Shown here: one piece after another, positions 29 through 9,614 of the stretch
Position numbering within the stretch: position 1 is the first letter of the stretch
Layout of the letters: the number at the start of each line of letters is the position of its first letter
DNA from: a virus
Reading direction: 5' to 3' (one strand)
UHGV virus genome: UHGV-0246901
DNA: 11,108 bases
Made by a program: the position numbers and the translations under genes
Notes under the pieces: model-generated
What the model saw: only the letters and a program-made list of their open reading frames with translations
Databases searched by the model: none
Told to the model about the DNA's origin: nothing

Positions 29-56
29 TTGACATAGAAAATTTGGTGAGTATACT
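29..56 (+). promoter_or_regulatory. sigma70-like promoter P1 (TTGACA 29-34, 16-nt spacer, TATACT 51-56)
   Basis: Near-consensus -35 and -10 hexamers with 16-nt spacing, upstream of the 299-1329 module; nearest upstream promoter-like sequence on this strand. Confidence 0.5.
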
Positions 57-86
57 GAGCAGCATAAACCAACGGGTACTCACCAG

Positions 87-125
87 CATCACTTAAGAGT
101 CTTCTCAGAGGGTTTTTAAGTGATG
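87..125 (+). repeat. IR-A copy 1: perfect 10-bp inverted repeat CATCACTTAA/TTAAGTGATG with 19-nt spacer
   Basis: Arms 87-96 and 116-125 are exact reverse complements. The spacer GAGTCTTCTCAGAGGGTTT can pair further (CUUC/GAGG inner stem). Near-identical copy at 1479-1517. About 30 nt downstream of the P1 -10 element, so near the 5' end of the predicted transcript. Confidence 0.7.
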
Positions 126-131
126 TGTAGC

Positions 132-223
132 CCGGTACGGTTTGGTACGGTAGTGTTCTGTGAGGTCGGGTAATGTAAGGTAAGGTATGGGTGGATGGTA
201 GTAGCCACATTAAAAATCTACCA
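132..223 (+). repeat. GT5-H unit 1: (NNGGT)n pentameric tract 132-191 plus stem-loop 196-223
   Basis: Eleven consecutive pentamers ending in GT (ccggt acggt ttggt acggt agtgt tctgt gaggt cgggt aatgt aaggt aaggt), then stem TGGTAG(196-201)/CTACCA(218-223) with loop TAGCCACATTAAAAAT. No ORF; period is 5, not 3. Confidence 0.7.
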
Positions 224-229
224 AGTTTC

Positions 230-258
230 TAAAGAGTCTTCTGTTGAGGGTTCTTTAC
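230..258 (+). repeat. third copy of AAGAGTCTTCT motif (variant with extra bases) ~40 nt upstream of the first CDS
   Basis: TAAAGAGTCTTCTGTTGAGGGTTCTTTAC matches the spacer of IR-A (TAAGAGTCTTCT..AGAGGGTTT) but lacks the flanking 10-bp arms. Confidence 0.4.
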
Positions 259-280
259 AAACAACTTAACAATCAACTAA

Positions 281-886
<606 letters not shown>

Positions 887-888
887 TT

Positions 889-1329
889 ATGAATACAAAA
901 GCATTAGCAGCAAAGTTTAGTTACGGTGACACTGTATCACATTCTGAGATGGACACCTTCTTAGGTATTGTGAAGCCAACTTATCAAGGTGACATTGTTA
1001 AGTACGAAGATGAAATGAAGGCTTATGCACTTACACGTCTAAACCGACTTGAGAAGTTTATTGAAAAGCTTCTTAAAGAAGAGAAGATTTATCTGGTTGC
1101 TTCAATGGGTGTTGGTTATCGTGTGGTTGAACCTAAGCATCAAGCAACTATTGCAAAACGTAAAATGTCTGGTAAGATTGGTCGTGCTTTAAAGCAAGCC
1201 ACTCAAGCAATTGAGAATGTGAATACTATGGCACTTAGTCATCAAGAACGTTCACGACTGATTGAACAGCAAAACCATTTAGCTGCTATGAAAGCTAACA
1301 TTAACAAGCAACGTAGAAAACCTTTCTAA
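889..1329 (+). CDS. hypothetical protein (146 aa, basic C-terminus)
   Basis: ATG two nt after the upstream stop (translational coupling); consistent codon usage; followed directly by an intrinsic terminator. Confidence 0.7.
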   Translation: MNTKALAAKFSYGDTVSHSEMDTFLGIVKPTYQGDIVKYEDEMKAYALTRLNRLEKFIEKLLKEEKIYLVASMGVGYRVVEPKHQATIAKRKMSGKIGRALKQATQAIENVNTMALSHQERSRLIEQQNHLAAMKANINKQRRKPF

Positions 1330-1337
1330 GTTGACTA

Positions 1338-1363
1338 GGAAGCCTCTTCGGAGGCTCCTTTTT
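1338..1363 (+). terminator. rho-independent terminator T1
   Basis: GC-rich stem AGCCTC(1341-1346)/GAGGCT(1351-1356) with TTCG tetraloop, followed by CC and T5 (1359-1363), immediately after the stop of 889-1329. Confidence 0.7.
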
Positions 1364-1390
1364 AAAAGGTCTTTAAACAGGGTCTTTTAA
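1359..1390 (+). repeat. M motif copy 1: TTTTTAAAAGGTCTTTAAACAGGGTCTTTTAA (tandem GGTCTTT)
   Basis: GGTCTTT at 1368-1374 and 1381-1387; whole 32-mer repeated at 1609-1640 with one indel and one substitution; in both copies it starts at the T-run that follows a hairpin. Confidence 0.55.
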
Positions 1391-1391
1391 T

Positions 1392-1478
1392 AAGGTAGGA
1401 TAGGGTGGTGTATGGTTTGGTAAGGTTGTGTAAGGTAAGGTATGGGTAGTTAATCGGAGCTACATTAAAATTCGATTA
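1392..1478 (+). repeat. GT5-H unit 2: pentameric tract 1392-1441 plus stem-loop 1451-1478
   Basis: Ten phased pentamers, nine ending GT; stem TAATCG(1451-1456)/CGATTA(1473-1478), loop GAGCTACATTAAAATT. Stem sequence differs completely from unit 1 but pairing is preserved. Confidence 0.7.
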
Positions 1479-1517
1479 CATCACTTAAGAGTCTTCTAAG
1501 AGGATTTTTAAGTGATG
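1479..1517 (+). repeat. IR-A copy 2: CATCACTTAA / 19 nt / TTAAGTGATG
   Basis: Arms 1479-1488 and 1508-1517 identical to copy 1; spacer GAGTCTTCTAAGAGGATTT differs at 2 positions, one of which converts a G-U to an A-U pair in the inner helix. Confidence 0.7.
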
Positions 1518-1528
1518 TGGGGCGAGGC

Positions 1529-1608
1529 TCGGTGAGGTGGGCTAAGGTATAGCGCGGTGTTGTTCGGTATGGGTAGTTAGTCTCAGCTACATTAAAATGA
1601 GACTTACC
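1529..1608 (+). repeat. GT5-H unit 3: degenerate pentameric tract 1529-1568 plus stem-loop 1572-1608
   Basis: Same 5-nt phase but only about 6 of 10 pentamers end in GT; stem AGTCTCA(1579-1585)/TGAGACT(1598-1604) with outer GGTA/TACC, loop GCTACATTAAAA; followed by T5, so this copy is terminator-like. Confidence 0.6.
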
Positions 1609-1640
1609 TTTTTAAAAGGTCTTTAAAAGGGTCTTTTAAC
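1609..1640 (+). repeat. M motif copy 2: TTTTTAAAAGGTCTTTAAAAGGGTCTTTTAAC
   Basis: GGTCTTT at 1618-1624 and 1630-1636; near-identical to 1359-1390. Confidence 0.55.
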
Positions 1641-1732
1641 AAGGTATTGTATGGTGTAGTTTGGTTAGGTATGGTTAGGTGTGGTAAGGTAAGGTATGGA
1701 AGGATGGCAGTAGCCTTATAAAAAATCTGCCA
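1641..1732 (+). repeat. GT5-H unit 4: (NNGGT)11 tract 1641-1695 plus stem-loop 1705-1732
   Basis: Eleven consecutive pentamers all ending GT (aaggt attgt atggt gtagt ttggt taggt atggt taggt gtggt aaggt aaggt); stem TGGCAG(1705-1710)/CTGCCA(1727-1732), loop TAGCCTTATAAAAAAT. Confidence 0.7.
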
Positions 1733-1750
1733 AATAAGCTATAAAATCTG

Positions 1751-1785
1751 TTGACAAGTCAGGTGTTATAGCTTATTTTTATACT
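1751..1785 (+). promoter_or_regulatory. candidate sigma70-like promoter P2 (TTGACA 1751-1756; -10 TATTTT 1774-1779 at 17 nt, or TATACT 1780-1785 at 23 nt)
   Basis: Consensus -35 hexamer in the same TG-TTGACA context as P1, but no consensus -10 at correct spacing; sits ~40 nt upstream of the operon starting at 1824. Confidence 0.35.
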
Positions 1786-5989: not shown

Positions 5990-8380
5990 TTAAGCAGTTC
6001 TTACCCAAGCCATTAACTTGTAGAACTGGTTAGTAACACTAAATGCTGAACCAGAACCTGTACCACCAGTGTTACCACTAACTGTATGAGTGTGAGCACC
6101 GATACCTACAGAGTGGGTGTGAGCACCAGTGTTACTTGTAGTACCAGACCATGTGTGTGTATGGTTACCAGTTGTGTTAGTGTTAGGGAATTTGTTATCA
6201 GTTCTGTCAAGCCAGTCAAGAGTTCTTGTCTTATTGTTACCAATAGTGGTATATCCGTACTGAGCATCACCACCATTAACCAATAGCAGACCTAAGTGGT
6301 GAGCGTGGTTACCAGCAGCACTTGTTGTACCACTTACAGAGTGAGTATGACCACCAGTGCTATTAGTGTTCTTCGTACCATAATCAAAAGATGAAGTGGT
6401 AGCAGAGAAACTATGGGTGTGTGAAGGCAGATTACCAACAGCTAACGTCACAGAGTCTGAACCACCTGTTGTAGCAACATCTGAACCGTTTGCTGCTGCA
6501 ATCCTGATAGTTCTACCAACACCATTGTTCAGGTACGTCCAAGTTAACCCAGGAAGTGCTGTATTAGGGTCAACGTTGCTGTTAAACCACGTTACAATAC
6601 CTACTGGATAGATTTTATTAAGGTCTGTAGAGTCACTTACTGCCTGTGCAATCTTCTGGTCAGTTTCAGCTTTAGTGTATGCACCAATATCTGAAGGGGT
6701 TGGTTTAAAGGCAGTTGTATAAATCTGTGCTTCTCCGGCATAGTCACCATTTTTGTCATAGGCATAGGTAAATGTTGCCAGTCCATTTGAGCCATACACA
6801 AAAGAGATTCCTCTTGCATGTGCAGCAGTCTTATTAGAGTGAGCAACATGAATTGCCAATTCTTTCAGTCCACTAGTAACCGCATTGTTTCTGACAAAAC
6901 CTGAATATCCAAGATTAAAACCTGAAGGGTTTTCAAGGTTATCTACAGAGACAGTCATTAAGGATTGGTTTAATAACTGAGTTTTAACAAAATATCTAGC
7001 ATCTAAGTTAGACCAATCAGAAGGTTGAACTTGACCAGTAATGGTTAGATTCTTATTAGCCTTAATCGCTGAAGGCATAAGGGTAATTTGAGTCCCAGAG
7101 TAGCTGTTGTTTAAGGCTACATCAGTAGAATTTGTGCCACCTACACCTACCCACCACCTAGATACATTCGCAGTATCAACACCACGGATATATTGTGGCT
7201 GCCCCTGTGTCAAGTTCCTCAATACTAGACCTTCATTGTTAGATACAATAGTCTGCACATTTGTAAAAGTGTTAGCCACATTAACCTTAGCAAGATTACT
7301 CAAAGTAGCTGCTGGAATATATCTAGAGTCGATATTAGCCCAATCAGAAGGTTGGACTTGACCAGTGATTCTAAAATTATTGTTTACTGCGACATGCCCA
7401 TTGTCAAGTCTAAGATAAGAACCATACACATAGTTGCTGATGAATACAGCAGGTGTATTATCACCATTTCCTACATACCACTTACCAGAACCATCATTAG
7501 CTTCGGCTTTAACGTATAGTGCAGCATTTGCTACAGTATTTTTCAACCTTAAAGCAGCACTATCACTGATAATAAGTAGGTTTCTGCTAAACGTGTTAGT
7601 GCCAGTGAAATTGTTATTGGCAGCTAACTGTGCAAATCTCTGATTAGCTGCTGTCTGAGTAAAGTATCTAGCATCTAAGTTAGAGAAGTCAGAAGGTTGC
7701 ACTTGACCATTGATTGATAAAGACCTATTAAAAGAAGCAGCCGTGCCTAGAGTGAGGATGGAACCTAGTTTACTCTCGATTTGAACATCAAGACTACCCC
7801 TAATCAGGTTCCCAATAGCCCAAGTTTTTTCATTGCTTGCATCCCTACCTACAATAGCAGAGTATGCACTATCCCCACTCACAGGAGATTTTAGTGTTAA
7901 CTGTTCCCCATTTGCTACAATGGTCTGTTTAGAGTTAAATGTGTTTGTAACAGCAAGCCTTGCGTATCTTGCATCATTCTCTTCATTAGTTCTCATCCCA
8001 AGTTCATTAGGACTTGGCTTATTCAGAGTATGATAAACAGTTGCCGACCTTGAAGCGTCTGCAATAGTTAGTTTAAGGCCGTTTGCGTTGATTTTAAAAG
8101 TCTTTAAAACATCCCCAATAGTAATCTCAGAAGAGCCTGTAGGGTCAAAGACTGCCTTGCCACCGTAAAGTAACTTAACAATTCCTAAGTCACCCTTCAT
8201 AGTGCTACCAACAATCTGAACAAATCTTTCAAGTTTAAAAGATGCTAAGAAGTCTTGATAGGTCATTCGACGGTCTTCATCACCCAGCATTTCAGGTCTC
8301 TTTTTAACTCTGACATGAAGAAGGTCATCTGAATGGATTGTATCGATTGAGTTTAATTCACTCAACTTGTAATCTGCCAT
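5990..8380 (-). CDS. tail fibre protein (796 aa) with collar-like domain and His-X-His repeats
   Basis: Three internal repeats each ending GQVQPSD(W/F)xN(L/I)DxRY; C-terminal segment resembling the phage tail-collar domain (LPGLTW...GNLPSHTHSF); 6-7 HxH motifs (HTHS, HAHH, HTHT...); C-terminus ...MAWVRTA shared with the 395-aa paralogue. Confidence 0.85.
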   Translation of the reverse strand: MADYKLSELNSIDTIHSDDLLHVRVKKRPEMLGDEDRRMTYQDFLASFKLERFVQIVGSTMKGDLGIVKLLYGGKAVFDPTGSSEITIGDVLKTFKINANGLKLTIADASRSATVYHTLNKPSPNELGMRTNEENDARYARLAVTNTFNSKQTIVANGEQLTLKSPVSGDSAYSAIVGRDASNEKTWAIGNLIRGSLDVQIESKLGSILTLGTAASFNRSLSINGQVQPSDFSNLDARYFTQTAANQRFAQLAANNNFTGTNTFSRNLLIISDSAALRLKNTVANAALYVKAEANDGSGKWYVGNGDNTPAVFISNYVYGSYLRLDNGHVAVNNNFRITGQVQPSDWANIDSRYIPAATLSNLAKVNVANTFTNVQTIVSNNEGLVLRNLTQGQPQYIRGVDTANVSRWWVGVGGTNSTDVALNNSYSGTQITLMPSAIKANKNLTITGQVQPSDWSNLDARYFVKTQLLNQSLMTVSVDNLENPSGFNLGYSGFVRNNAVTSGLKELAIHVAHSNKTAAHARGISFVYGSNGLATFTYAYDKNGDYAGEAQIYTTAFKPTPSDIGAYTKAETDQKIAQAVSDSTDLNKIYPVGIVTWFNSNVDPNTALPGLTWTYLNNGVGRTIRIAAANGSDVATTGGSDSVTLAVGNLPSHTHSFSATTSSFDYGTKNTNSTGGHTHSVSGTTSAAGNHAHHLGLLLVNGGDAQYGYTTIGNNKTRTLDWLDRTDNKFPNTNTTGNHTHTWSGTTSNTGAHTHSVGIGAHTHTVSGNTGGTGSGSAFSVTNQFYKLMAWVRTA
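6990..7716 (-). repeat. three dispersed ~50-bp direct repeats inside the 796-aa tail-fibre gene (about 6990-7045, 7314-7370, 7661-7716)
   Basis: Core CCAATCAGAAGGTTGAACTTGACCAGT (plus strand) recurs at ~335-bp spacing; first and third copies also share ATCTAGCATCTAAGTTAGA. They encode the GQVQPSDW..RY ends of three tandem protein repeats. Confidence 0.7.
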
Positions 8381-8426: not shown

Positions 8427-9614
8427 TTAAGCTGTTCTCTGCCATACATACAGGACGAAGGATGGCTGCTCAATGTTGAAAGCTTGTCCACCACCAACAC
8501 TATTAGTGTTCCCGCTATGCGTATGCTCAGAAGAAGAAACTGTTACAGTGCCATTGTGTGTATGTGAACCAATACCAACTGTGTGGCTGTGAGCACCAAT
8601 ACCAACCGTATGGTTGTGGTTACCAGTTGTATTAGTGGTAACACTGAAAGAGTGGGTGTGTGCACCAGCTACTTCACAGACAGCATCTGCTGAGTACCAT
8701 GATTGGTCATTCCTTGTAGACCAAACCATTGCAGGTCTTTCCGATAAACCACCACCTGCTTCATAGGTCAATCTGTGGTTGTGAGCACCAGCAGAACTTG
8801 TTGACCCACTACCAACATGGTTATGGTTACCAGTCGTGTTAGTGGTCTTAGTTCCATAGTCAAAAGAGTTAGTAGTCTTAGTTCCATAATCAAAAGCTGA
8901 AATTGACACCGTTGCATTATGAGTATGACCACCACCACTAAGAGACACAGAGTGAGAGTGTTGAGGCATGTTATTAACTGACAAAGTGACAGTTGAAGCA
9001 CCAAATACAGAACCTGCTGGTCTTGTGTCAGAGTCATAACCAACCAATGCTCTACCCTTTGAAACTAACTCCCAAGTACCTCCACAAATTAAATATGTAG
9101 AGGGGTTTGCAGAGTTCATGGAAAGATGGATAGTACCTACTGGATAGGAAGCCTGAACAGCCTTGTACAAGTTATTTACTGCTCTTGCTGTAGCGTACTT
9201 ATCTGCATCCTCATTATAAAGGTTAGATGTTGTCCAGTTCTGAACATTACTCAATCCTACCTGTGCCTTAGTTGTATTGTGTGGGTTGCTCTTGTCCTGA
9301 ATATGCTGTTGAACAAGGTTATTAACCTCTTCTGAAGACATAATCTGTAGATTTGCTCTTGCCTCAGCTACATTAACAACATCTGATAAGTTATTTGCAG
9401 CAACTAACTGAAGAGCATTAATAACATTATCTAAACCAATTTGTGTTTTAGTAACACCATGAGGGTTATTTCTTAGGCTTGAGTGTGGAGCAAGTAATTG
9501 CTCAAGAGTACATCTCTTATCCTCAATACCTTGCTTAAGATGGAAGATATCACTAAGGTCAATTGGTAAGGCTGCTTGAGGCAAGGCACTAATTTGAATT
9601 TCACCTACCGCCAT
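8427..9614 (-). CDS. tail fibre protein (395 aa), paralogue of the 796-aa protein
   Basis: N-terminal repeats NPHGVTKTQIGLDNV / NPHNTTKAQVGLSNV (phage tail-fibre repeat-like); collar-like segment ICGGTWELVSKGRALVG...NNMPQHSHSVS; nine HxH motifs; C-terminus ...VWQRTA; SD AGGAG ~8 nt upstream. Confidence 0.85.
   Translation of the reverse strand: MAVGEIQISALPQAALPIDLSDIFHLKQGIEDKRCTLEQLLAPHSSLRNNPHGVTKTQIGLDNVINALQLVAANNLSDVVNVAEARANLQIMSSEEVNNLVQQHIQDKSNPHNTTKAQVGLSNVQNWTTSNLYNEDADKYATARAVNNLYKAVQASYPVGTIHLSMNSANPSTYLICGGTWELVSKGRALVGYDSDTRPAGSVFGASTVTLSVNNMPQHSHSVSLSGGGHTHNATVSISAFDYGTKTTNSFDYGTKTTNTTGNHNHVGSGSTSSAGAHNHRLTYEAGGGLSERPAMVWSTRNDQSWYSADAVCEVAGAHTHSFSVTTNTTGNHNHTVGIGAHSHTVGIGSHTHNGTVTVSSSEHTHSGNTNSVGGGQAFNIEQPSFVLYVWQRTA
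8841..8900 (-). repeat. in-frame 30-bp tandem duplication within the 395-aa tail-fibre gene
   Basis: 8841-8870 and 8871-8900 match at 26 of 30 positions and encode a tandem SFDYGTKTTN repeat; the 796-aa paralogue has a single FDYGTKNTN. Confidence 0.8.

What the first reader, a model, noticed from the sequence alone, without database searches (positions are those of the whole stretch)
1359..1640. Tandem GGTCTTT motif (M element) always docked directly behind a terminator-type hairpin
The 32-mer TTTTTAAAAGGTCTTTAAA(C)AGGGTCTTTTAA occurs twice (1359-1390, 1609-1640), each time starting at the T-run after a hairpin (T1 and hairpin H3), and each time followed by a pentameric GT tract. This fixed order (hairpin, M, GT tract, H hairpin) suggests a composite cassette. 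M could be a promoter class not matching sigma70 consensus (for a phage-modified polymerase) or a protein-binding site.
Basis: seen in the sequence. Interest (0 to 1): 0.5.

Follow-up and report, generated by a model that had tools for sequence, protein, structure and literature searches.

The report
Separator hairpin in VIPR guide-RNA array
The repeated 32-mer is the short form of an RNA hairpin that sits directly in front of guide RNAs in a phage-encoded, CRISPR-like "VIPR" array; two 2026 preprints already describe the system, but not what this hairpin does, which is most likely to mark where each guide is cut out of its precursor.

Summary
The 32-mer is at 1359-1390 and 1609-1640 (copy 2 lacks one C), with none expected by chance. 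Each copy follows a T-run and precedes a 5-nt-periodic GT tract.

The context is already published. The window is a Felixounavirus carrying a type II VIPR system:
- ORF 299-886 is Vipr, a RAMP protein 191/195 identical to SUSP1 Vipr (PDB 36pp).
- ORF 889-1329 is Vap1.
- The four "GT tracts" are vrRNA guide regions (13, 11, 11 and 12 YNNGG repeats), each capped by a 3' pseudoknot tail. One lies upstream and three downstream, as in SUSP1.

M itself is not described in the preprint texts. My analysis says M is an RNA hairpin on the sense strand:
- It has a 12-bp wobble-rich upper stem, a 1x1 mismatch and a 4-6-bp lower stem.
- The lower stem uses the T-run and the first YNNGG repeat.
- A long form (H) and a third form (M', before vipr) have the same architecture with compensatory changes.
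- Its 3' base is in exact pentamer register with the guide.

Best reading: M is an inter-guide separator and processing hairpin, possibly cut by host RNase III, rather than a promoter. An internal weak promoter is not excluded. The system is known; M's role is a modest open detail.

The parts
29..56 (+). Sigma-70-type promoter P (TTGACA, 16 nt, TATACT) that drives vrRNA1, vipr and vap1.
   Evidence: 11/12 match. Conserved in all relatives.
86..126 (+). H hairpin, the long form of the separator (19 bp with G.U pairs). It lies 5' of vrRNA1, about 25 nt downstream of the predicted start.
   Evidence: Fold -20 kcal/mol, z -5.6, against -11 kcal/mol on the minus strand. Weak match to the covariance model trained on M and M' (20 bits, E 0.2).
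126..190 (+). vrRNA1 guide region: 13 YNNGG repeats.
   Evidence: Repeat composition across 743 repeats in relatives: Y 97%, N, N, G 81%, G 97%. vrRNA definition from the preprint.
191..223 (+). vrRNA1 3' tail. Pseudoknot with S1 GTGG/CCAC and S2 TGGTAG/CTACCA.
   Evidence: Four tail types show compensatory S1 and S2 changes. Pseudoknot described in the preprints.
225..262 (+). M' hairpin. Same architecture as M (4 bp, 1x1 mismatch, 12 bp). It lies between the vrRNA1 tail and the vipr ribosome-binding site.
   Evidence: Folds. Covariance-model hit of 40 bits. Compensatory changes against M.
299..886 (+). vipr: RAMP-fold guide-RNA-binding protein (195 aa).
889..1329 (+). vap1: accessory gene (146 aa).
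   Evidence: 99% identical to the gene downstream of vipr in SUSP1. No Pfam or PDB match. Role taken from the preprint.
1338..1363 (+). T1: intrinsic-terminator-type hairpin (GC-rich stem, UUCG loop, T5). Its CC and T-run also form the 5' side of M's lower stem.
1357..1395 (+). M copy 1, as the extended hairpin: CCUU.UUAAAAGGUCUU[UAAAC]AGGGUCUUUUAA.AAGG. It contains the reported 32-mer (1359-1390).
   Evidence: Fold -11.3 kcal/mol, z -3.0. Covariance-model hit of 69 bits on the plus strand against 25 bits on the minus strand. Pair counts.
1391..1445 (+). vrRNA2 guide region: 11 YNNGG repeats. The first repeat (TAAGG) is part of M's lower stem.
1446..1478 (+). vrRNA2 3' tail, type 'a' (TAATCGG..TCGATTA, no T-run). 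This type is always followed by H.
1477..1519 (+). H hairpin copy 2 (20 bp), 5' of vrRNA3.
   Evidence: Fold -24.8 kcal/mol, z -8.3. Covariance-model hit of 31 bits, E 4e-4, although H was not in the training set.
1518..1572 (+). vrRNA3 guide region: 11 YNNGG repeats.
1573..1604 (+). vrRNA3 3' tail, type 'b' (AGTCTCA..TGAGACT). It is followed by TACC and a T-run, and then by M.
1605..1646 (+). M copy 2, as the extended hairpin: UACCUU.UUAAAAGGUCUU[UAAA]AGGGUCUUUUAA.AAGGUA. It contains the reported copy at 1609-1640.
   Evidence: Fold -13.4 kcal/mol, z -3.4. Covariance-model hit of 65 bits.
1640..1699 (+). vrRNA4 guide region: 12 YNNGG repeats. The first repeat (CAAGG) is part of M's lower stem.
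   Evidence: The identical tract occurs in two other phages.
1700..1733 (+). vrRNA4 3' tail, type 'd' (S1 AAGG/CCTT, S2 TGGCAG/CTGCCA).
1732..1779 (+). 19-nt inverted repeat enclosing the -35 box of the next sigma-70-type promoter (TTGACA, 17 nt, TATTTT). It marks the end of the array.
   Evidence: (I10).

Best explanation
M is an RNA element, not a DNA signal. It is the short form of the separator hairpin that flanks the guide RNAs (vrRNAs) of this phage's type II VIPR array.

Proposed mechanism:
1. Transcription from the sigma-70 promoter at 29-56 runs through vrRNA1, vipr and vap1. By read-through of T1 it continues into the three downstream units.
2. In that precursor each guide region (YNNGG repeats) is bracketed by its own pseudoknot tail on the 3' side and a 16-20-bp hairpin on the 5' side. 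The hairpin is H where the upstream element has no T-run, and M where it has one.
3. In M the T-run is not primarily a terminator tail. With the preceding CC it pairs with the first repeat (U[A/G]AGG) to form the lower stem.
4. Vipr protomers coat the single-stranded repeats from the 3' pseudoknot towards the 5' end (published) and cannot enter the hairpin (inferred).
5. The exposed double-stranded hairpin is then cut away. One cut region makes the 3' end of one vrRNA and the 5' end of the next. The most likely enzyme is host RNase III, given the hairpin length.

Shown here: sequence, strand-specific fold, covariation, exact register with the repeats, array grammar, and identity of the system. 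Taken from the preprints: mature vrRNAs are about 100 nt (repeats plus tail, with no 5' hairpin), and other VIPR types carry hammerhead ribozymes at this position. Inferred: removal of the hairpin, its role as a boundary, and the nuclease.
For: System identity:
- Vipr is 191/195 identical to SUSP1 Vipr, and the RNA-contact residues H17, E71, M72, R138, C173, D177, W178 and R179 are present.
- The predicted fold is RAMP.
- Vap1 is 99% identical to the SUSP1 gene.
- There are four tracts of 11-13 YNNGG repeats with pseudoknot tails, one upstream and three downstream, as reported for SUSP1.

M as an RNA hairpin:
- Sense-strand folds are -11.3 and -13.4 kcal/mol, with z -3.0 and -3.4. Three G.U pairs make the antisense strand far weaker, -2.9 against -6.1 for the core.
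- On 35 distinct M and M' sequences, 97.3% of cells are paired, against 43-75% when partners are slid; 0/500 shuffles reach the observed value.
- A covariance model trained on M and M' retrieves the untrained H hairpins. In that alignment 7 of 16 pairs change on both sides (35 cells; 2/500 shuffles).
- M against M': lower stem CCUU/AAGG becomes GUUU/AAAC, and upper-stem A-U and G-C pairs swap.
- The loop varies in sequence and length while the stems are kept.
- An H variant with a 22-nt apical insertion still folds as a longer hairpin.

Boundary role:
- In 54 of 56 distinct units, the distance from the 3' base of the hairpin to the tail is an exact multiple of 5.
- The first repeat after M is always [T/C][A/G]AGG (31/31 distinct units), whereas after H it is free. 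This fits pairing with CCUU.
- The two natural T-run variants (TCATT, TTATT) keep the stem and add pairs.

Removal:
- Published vrRNAs are about 100 nt, and the cryo-EM structure shows 12 protomers on 12 repeats plus the 3' pseudoknot. SUSP1 vrRNA1 is 60 nt of repeats plus a tail of about 40 nt, so the 39-nt H is not included.
- H lies inside the transcript, about 25 nt after promoter P, where no promoter is needed.
- M' lies between a vrRNA and the vipr ribosome-binding site.

Analogy with other arrays:
- Hammerhead ribozymes occupy the same position in type I and V arrays.
- Hairpins abut the first repeat in Pseudomonas phage LESphi2.
- A tRNA-like element does so in Gordonia phage MakoManhole.

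E. coli has no 5'-to-3' exoribonuclease (established knowledge), so a defined 5' end needs an endonucleolytic site or a transcription start.
Against: - M always follows terminator-type structures. T1 looks like an efficient terminator, so downstream units depend on read-through, which I could not measure.
- M carries a weak promoter-like arrangement: TTAAAA, 18 nt, TTTAAT (9/12) in copy 1, and 8/12 in copy 2.
- In two other Vipr clades (L146, L147) the tracts are preceded by AT-rich TATAAT stretches and no hairpin. Per-unit promoters therefore exist in the family.
- M's stem is AU- and GU-rich and only moderately stable. At 16-18 bp with a mismatch it is at the lower limit for RNase III.
- The LESphi2 separators are only 6-7 bp, so RNase III cannot be the general answer.
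- The covariation rests on three paralogous forms within one closely related phage group, so independent events are few. Alignment A4 was fitted to the model.
- I had no RNA-end data. The figures of the preprints are not held, so M may be drawn there.
Confidence: 0.6

Rival explanations
1. M is an internal promoter, either weak sigma-70-like or dependent on a phage factor. It would restart transcription of the next vrRNA after the terminator-type hairpin.
For: M always follows T1 or the T-run-bearing tail. Relaxed scoring finds TTAAAA, 18 nt, TTTAAT (9/12), which would place a start at the second repeat. Two other Vipr clades have TATAAT-containing AT-rich stretches in front of their tracts. 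SUSP1 vrRNAs downstream of T1 are expressed during infection.
Against: No hit in the sigma-70 scan. The A at -11 is absent, and the T at -7 is C in copy 2. The most conserved bases (GGTCTT and AGGGTC) would lie in the spacer, while the loop varies. The motif is absent from every other intergenic region of an 88-kb relative genome. The hairpin is strand-specific and G.U-dependent, with compensatory changes. The homologous H and M' sit where no promoter is needed. A functional RNA hairpin requires that M itself be transcribed.
Confidence: 0.15
2. The hairpin is not removed but kept as a 5' handle or cap of the mature vrRNA. It would protect against RNase E, or act as a docking or stop signal for the Vipr filament.
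For: It directly abuts the first repeat, in register. The wobble-rich GUCUU/AGGGU box is conserved in M, M' and H, which suggests specific recognition. The 5' end of the filament is poorly resolved in the binary cryo-EM complex.
Against: Published vrRNAs are about 100 nt, which equals repeats plus tail. The cryo-EM model has 12 protomers and the 3' pseudoknot only. M' is not followed by any guide.
Confidence: 0.1
3. The tandem GGTCTTT motif is a double-stranded DNA site for a regulator, either Vap1 or the nearby HTH protein (2384-2713), that controls expression of the array.
For: There are two direct repeats 12-13 bp apart, about one helical turn. Vap1 is predicted to bind DNA according to the preprint. 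An HTH gene lies close by.
Against: The spacing varies by 1-2 bp among natural variants, while stem complementarity is kept. Compensatory changes outside the GGTC boxes and the strand asymmetry fit RNA rather than duplex DNA. There is no direct evidence for binding.
Confidence: 0.05

Closest known systems
Type II VIPR system of Escherichia phage SUSP1 (bioRxiv 10.64898/2026.04.26.720920 and 10.64898/2026.04.26.720927; PDB 36pp)
   Same: Vipr is 98% identical and Vap1 99% identical. The gene order, promoter and T1 are the same, as are the YNNGG vrRNAs with pseudoknot tails, with one upstream and three downstream. SUSP1 itself carries M in front of vrRNA2 and vrRNA3, and H in front of vrRNA1 and vrRNA4.
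   Different: The guide (NN) sequences and the order of M- and H-type units differ. The host phage is a Felixounavirus rather than a Suspvirus. The texts and legends of the preprints do not mention the 5' separator hairpins or type II vrRNA biogenesis.
Hammerhead-ribozyme-interspersed vrRNA arrays of type I and V VIPR systems (same preprint, fig. S19 legend)
   Same: A constant structured RNA module sits between adjacent vrRNAs at the position M and H occupy, and its role is to release individual guides.
   Different: M and H are plain hairpins with no ribozyme signature (Rfam search negative). Cleavage would need a protein nuclease.
CRISPR repeat hairpins processed by Cas6, which set the crRNA 5' handle
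   Same: A constant hairpin lies between variable guides, its 3' base defines where the next guide starts, and the partner protein is a RAMP.
   Different: There is no Cas6, no adaptation module and no identical repeats. The hairpin appears to be discarded rather than retained, and the guide is a gapped GGY/NN code.
Host RNase III processing hairpins in phage T7 early transcripts and in rRNA operons (established knowledge)
   Same: Hairpins of about 20 bp separate functional RNAs within one polycistronic transcript of a coliphage. An upstream stable hairpin (here T1) would be left as a protective 3' end.
   Different: Cleavage of M and H by RNase III is untested. M is shorter (16-18 bp with a mismatch) and rich in A-U and G.U pairs.

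Membership tests
VIPR system (type II, SUSP1 clade) | A Vipr protein: a minimal RAMP (RRM core, G-loop, thumb) of about 20 kDa. | tested here: met
VIPR system (type II, SUSP1 clade) | vrRNAs made of 9-16 tandem YNNGG repeats, with conserved GGY and hypervariable NN. | tested here: met
   Tracts of 13, 11, 11 and 12 repeats. Composition over 743 repeats: Y 97%, N, N, G 81%, G 97%. The NN positions are hypervariable among phages whose flanks are about 95% identical.
VIPR system (type II, SUSP1 clade) | An invariable 3' tail forming a pseudoknot. | tested here: met
   Four tail types with compensatory changes in both helices: S1 GTGG/CCAC, GTAG/CTAC and AAGG/CCTT; S2 TGGTAG/CTACCA, TAATCG/CGATTA, AGTCTCA/TGAGACT and TGGCAG/CTGCCA. 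Assessed by inspection, without a formal pseudoknot test.
VIPR system (type II, SUSP1 clade) | A two-gene operon, vipr plus vap1, flanked by the ncRNA regions. | tested here: met
VIPR system (type II, SUSP1 clade) | vrRNAs are expressed, bound by Vipr, and direct DNA binding by the 1-nt-skip rule. | not testable with these tools
   Shown experimentally for SUSP1 only.
VIPR system (type II, SUSP1 clade) | Natural targets can be found with the xNN rule. | tested here: inconclusive
   Exact 10-unit patterns from vrRNA4 and vrRNA1 found nothing in IMG/VR. A 9-unit pattern gave 4 hits in unrelated GC-rich genomes, which I judge unrelated. The E. coli pangenome could not be pattern-scanned.
Sigma-70 promoter (for M) | -35 and -10 hexamers 16-18 nt apart, with A at -11 and T at -7. 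| tested here: not met
   No site in M. The best relaxed match is 9/12 (TTAAAA, 18 nt, TTTAAT) without the A at -11; copy 2 scores 8/12 with C at -7.
Phage-specific promoter class (for M) | The motif recurs upstream of several transcription units in the genome. | tested here: not met
   In the 88-kb KhF1 genome, M, H and M' occur only in the VIPR locus.
Structured RNA hairpin (for M) | Strand-specific stability and base pairs maintained through substitutions. | tested here: met
   97% of cells paired, and 7 of 16 pairs with changes on both sides once H is included. Caveat: these are paralogues within one phage group, and the alignment was fitted to the model.
RNase III substrate (for M and H) | About two turns of double-stranded RNA, and cleavage by RNase III. 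| not testable with these tools
   Length only: H is 19-20 bp; M is 16-18 bp with a 1x1 mismatch. Cleavage is untested.
Self-cleaving ribozyme or other Rfam family (for M and H) | A match to a curated covariance model. | tested here: not met
   No relevant Rfam hit at E <= 1 anywhere in the window.
Intrinsic terminator (for T1, the hairpin M is docked to) | A GC-rich stem-loop immediately followed by a T-run. | tested here: met
   Termination efficiency is unknown.

The most novel reading that the evidence does not exclude
M, H and M' are the dedicated biogenesis signal of type II VIPR arrays. The signal is a wobble-rich (GUCUU/AGGGU) hairpin of 16-20 bp that halts Vipr filament growth. It is cut by host RNase III, or by a still unknown activity associated with Vipr. 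One cleavage region would then create the 3' end of one guide and the 5' end of the next. In M-type units the first YNNGG repeat would be structural rather than part of the targeting code.
Probability: 0.35. Interest if true: 0.5.

Novelty: new member of a known kind. Interest (0 to 1): 0.35.

Why it matters
This is a RAMP-based, CRISPR-like system with a gapped guide code, and it was made public in two 2026 preprints. The main biology is therefore important but already known, and this window is a near-identical member of the SUSP1 clade.

What remains open, and is touched by this finding, is how type II vrRNAs get their ends.

If M and H are processing or boundary hairpins, three things follow:
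1. They are the natural separators to use when building multiplexed VIPR arrays.
2. vrRNA boundaries can be annotated from sequence, because the hairpin's 3' base marks repeat 1.
3. In M-type units the first repeat (NN always AA or GA) should be left out of target predictions made with the 1-nt-skip rule.

It would also add a host-nuclease-dependent route to the ribozyme-based route already reported for other VIPR types.

Tried and rejected
Ideas held before the literature hit, all superseded by the VIPR identification:
- 5-nt periodic GGU as a site for a TRAP-like ring protein.
- An R-loop or replication origin (G-rich RNA; T7-primase-like GGGTC sites in M).
- An antisense rut site.
- Two-tier G-quadruplexes.
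- A Shine-Dalgarno-like sponge.

Searches that led nowhere:
- Rfam search of the window found nothing relevant.
- The Felix O1 genome paper does not mention these repeats.
- BLAST of the tail-plus-M and tail-plus-H modules against 5,426 E. coli genomes gave no match, so I found no satellite-borne copies.
- ARAGORN and Rfam on the distant loci L142-L144 found nothing.
- Pfam and PDB searches for Vap1 found nothing.
- Target searches with exact xNN patterns were negative or unrelated.

Technical limit: MAFFT aligned M' one column out of structural register on the 3' side. The pair count therefore understates M' pairing. I also used a hand-anchored count and a model-based alignment.

Also considered and rejected:
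- M as the second half of a bidirectional terminator. There is no A-run upstream of T1.
- Pairing of AAAAGG with the adjacent CCUUUU. The loop would be 1 nt, which is sterically impossible.
Full report
**Observation.** The window reads TTTTTAAAAGGTCTTTAAACAGGGTCTTTTAA at 1359-1390. The same sequence minus one C is at 1609-1640. The shared 19-mer occurs twice with up to 2 mismatches allowed, and none is expected by chance. Copy 1 begins in the T-run of the only terminator-like site found by the scan (stem 1341-1356). Copy 2 begins in the T-run after a hairpin with a 12-nt loop. Each copy is followed by a tract in which GT recurs in one 5-nt phase 10-11 times.

**Source and wider anatomy.** The window is a Felixounavirus; the best hit is phage KhF1 at 95% identity over 97% of the window. 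Reading the two non-coding stretches (60-298 and 1330-1823) shows a repeated unit of about 125 nt:
- a hairpin, which is either M or a longer form H (CATCACTTAAGAGTCTTCT..AGAGGGTTTTTAAGTGATG);
- the pentameric tract;
- a second structured element with covarying stems and a conserved loop.

I compared KhF1, 18 IMG/VR relatives and a more divergent Shigella phage. The hairpins and the 3' elements are almost invariant. The tracts differ completely in two of every five positions and in the number of pentamers. The number of units per locus varies from 1 to 3. In the complete KhF1 genome the tracts and hairpins occur only here, always on the strand of the flanking genes.

**What the cassette is.** A collection scan for (GGTNN)x6 showed similar non-coding degenerate tracts in many unrelated viral contigs. 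A literature search then found the explanation. Two 2026 bioRxiv preprints describe VIPR systems:
- Vipr is a minimal RAMP protein.
- vrRNAs are made of 9-16 YNNGG repeats (conserved GGY, hypervariable NN) followed by a constant 3' tail with a pseudoknot.
- Vipr polymerises along the repeats, one protomer per repeat.
- The NN dinucleotides read double-stranded DNA, skipping one nucleotide per repeat.
- The system silences competing phages and satellites.
- The model system is phage SUSP1, with one vrRNA upstream and three downstream of vipr-vap1.

**Membership, tested here.**
- The profile of ORF 299-886 hits PDB 36pp 'SUSP1 Vipr protein' at E 5e-82.
- The protein is 191/195 identical to SUSP1 Vipr and keeps the published RNA-contact residues.
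- ORF 889-1329 is 99% identical to the SUSP1 gene downstream of vipr.
- IMG/VR locus L018 is SUSP1 itself, with 0 mismatches over 4,385 nt.
- The four tracts are 13, 11, 11 and 12 YNNGG repeats.
- Over 743 repeats in relatives the composition is Y 97%, N, N, G 81%, G 97%.
- The tails come in four types with compensatory changes in both pseudoknot helices.

The 'GT tract' is therefore a vrRNA guide region, and the hairpin after it is the published tail. The window is a member of the SUSP1-clade type II VIPR.

**What the preprints do not say.** In the text, methods and legends held, there is no mention of a 5' flanking hairpin, precursor, RNase, terminator or biogenesis for type II arrays. Figures are not held. 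They do report hammerhead ribozymes between adjacent vrRNAs in type I and V arrays, and 'staggered' arrays of processed vrRNAs. SUSP1 itself carries M in front of vrRNA2 and vrRNA3.

**M as an RNA hairpin.** On the sense strand the 32-mer folds into a 12-bp stem, UUAAAAGGUCUU/AGGGUCUUUUAA, with three G.U pairs. The antisense strand folds far worse.

With a few flanking bases the stem extends. The CC and T-run upstream pair with the first repeat downstream: (UA)CCUU.[12 bp].AAGG(UA). This gives 16-18 bp with a 1x1 mismatch, at -11.3 and -13.4 kcal/mol and z -3.0 and -3.4.

Two other elements have the same architecture:
- M' (225-262) lies between the vrRNA1 tail and the vipr ribosome-binding site.
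- H (86-126 and 1477-1519) is 19-20 bp, at -20 and -24.8 kcal/mol.

Between these forms the pairs change on both sides. The lower stem CCUU/AAGG becomes GUUU/AAAC, and upper-stem A-U and G-C pairs swap. The apical GUCUU/AGGGU wobble box is constant.

Pair counts support the structure:
- On 35 distinct M and M' sequences, 97.3% of cells are paired, against 43-75% when partners are slid. No shuffle of 500 reaches the observed value.
- A covariance model built from M and M' retrieves H hairpins it was not trained on (20-35 bits). It finds nothing significant elsewhere in the KhF1 genome, and scores 61-69 bits on the plus strand against 17-30 bits on the minus strand.
- On that alignment 7 of 16 pairs show changes on both sides. 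The caveats are that this alignment is fitted to the model and that the forms are paralogues within one phage group.

Natural variants fit the same picture. Variants change the loop sequence and length but keep the stems. One H variant has a 22-nt apical insertion and still folds as a longer hairpin.

**Relation to the guide.**
- In 54 of 56 distinct units, the distance from the 3' base of the hairpin to the tail is an exact multiple of five.
- After M the first repeat is always [T/C][A/G]AGG (31 of 31 distinct units). After H it is free. This fits the pairing of that repeat with CCUU.
- The two natural variants that break T1's T-run (TCATT, TTATT) keep the stem and add pairs.

**Array grammar.** The order is fixed in 19 of the 20 loci the motif parse ran on; it printed nothing for the window itself. 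The window and L145 show the same order on direct reading:
- promoter, then H;
- tail type 'a' (no T-run), then H;
- tail type 'b' (TACC plus T-run), then M, with one exception in SUSP1;
- T1, then M;
- last tail of the upstream array, then M'.

**Mechanism proposed.** Published vrRNAs are about 100 nt, and the cryo-EM model contains 12 protomers on 12 repeats plus the 3' pseudoknot. SUSP1 vrRNA1 is 60 nt of repeats plus a tail of about 40 nt, so the 39-nt H is not part of the mature RNA. H lies inside the transcript from promoter P. E. coli has no 5'-to-3' exonuclease (established knowledge), so an endonucleolytic event must create the 5' end.

I therefore read M, H and M' as separator hairpins:
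- They bound the single-stranded repeat region that Vipr coats from the pseudoknot towards the 5' end.
- They are then cut out, giving the ends of neighbouring RNAs.

Their length (16-20 bp) points to host RNase III, which T7 and other coliphages use in the same way. This last step is inference only.

Comparative support for 'a processing or boundary module in front of each tract':
- hammerheads in types I and V;
- hairpins whose base overlaps the first repeat in Pseudomonas phage LESphi2;
- a tRNA-like acceptor and T-arm element in Gordonia phage MakoManhole (ARAGORN negative).

**The promoter alternative.** M follows terminator-type structures. In two other Vipr clades the tracts are preceded by AT-rich TATAAT stretches without hairpins. 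Per-unit promoters therefore exist in the family. But M fails the sigma-70 scan. Its best relaxed match is 9/12 without the A at -11, and copy 2 has C at -7. Its most conserved bases would fall in the spacer. The motif is not used anywhere else in the genome. A functional RNA hairpin also implies that M is itself transcribed. I give the promoter reading about 0.15, the retained 5' handle about 0.1, and a DNA-binding site about 0.05.

**Verdict.** The cassette is a known kind (a VIPR type II vrRNA unit), and this locus is a near-identical new member. The promoter or protein-site reading of M is not supported; the best-supported reading is an RNA separator hairpin. The system is remarkable but already reported, so the residual novelty is a biogenesis detail that needs RNA-end mapping. 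One practical consequence is that the first repeat after M should probably be left out of target prediction. Target searches for this window's guides were inconclusive.

Noticed in passing
IMG/VR loci L026, L031, L042, L046, L048, L068, L069, L105, L108, L112: A conserved coding tract, GGTTAGGTTAGGTAAGGTTAGGTTAGGTAAGG (VRLGKVRLGK in the open frame), is preceded by iteron-like GTATACA/GGATAC repeats. It looks like the origin or linker region of replisome-organiser genes of Gram-positive phages. Whether it relates to VIPR (target, mimic or coincidence) is unknown.
   Followed up: no
L143 (Gordonia phage MakoManhole) 1651-1693, 2984-3026, 3101-3143: Each GGY/NN tract is preceded by GCTCGG..GGTGGGGTTCGACTCCCCACCCGAGCAC, an acceptor-like stem plus a canonical T-arm (tRNA-like minihelix). 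This suggests processing of the RNase P or RNase Z type. ARAGORN calls no tRNA. The fold supports the T-arm and the outer stem.
   Followed up: partly
L146 1600-1660 and 2930-2975; L147 1655-1720: In Vipr clades at 49% identity (L146 = P0020, L147 = P0026), the tracts are preceded by AT-rich stretches containing TATAAT and no hairpin. Each vrRNA may have its own promoter there.
   Followed up: partly
L148 1340-1730: A continuous array of six or more GGY/NN tracts is joined only by GGTATTCAGTTGG-type junctions. This matches the 'staggered arrays' mentioned in the preprint.
   Followed up: no
L142 (Pseudomonas phage LESphi2) 1360-1720: There are three vrRNA-like tracts upstream of a Vipr homologue (39% identity). 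Each is preceded by a short hairpin whose base overlaps the first repeat. One hairpin has tandem U.G/G.U pairs, as M does.
   Followed up: partly
GenBank GU169904.1 'Staphylococcus phage SA1', 91679-92263: A 147-kb record labelled as a Staphylococcus phage encodes a Vipr 99.5% identical to the one in this coliphage window. The record is probably chimeric or contaminated.
   Followed up: no
window 1732-1778: A 19-nt inverted repeat (89% complementary) encloses the -35 box of the promoter of the next gene, which encodes a 127-aa protein with a signal-peptide-like N-terminus. It could be an operator or the terminal hairpin of the array.
   Followed up: no
window 5990-8380 and 8427-9614 (minus strand): The two tail-fibre genes share several internal DNA repeats (families D2, D5, D8). 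The Felix O1 genome paper notes the same for gp76 and gp77.
   Followed up: no
window 1640-1699; L009 and L013 region B: The vrRNA4 guide tract is identical in three otherwise distinct phages. Other tracts differ only by gain or loss of whole pentamers, for example GGTCA x3 against x4. Guides therefore seem to spread by recombination and evolve by pentamer slippage.
   Followed up: partly
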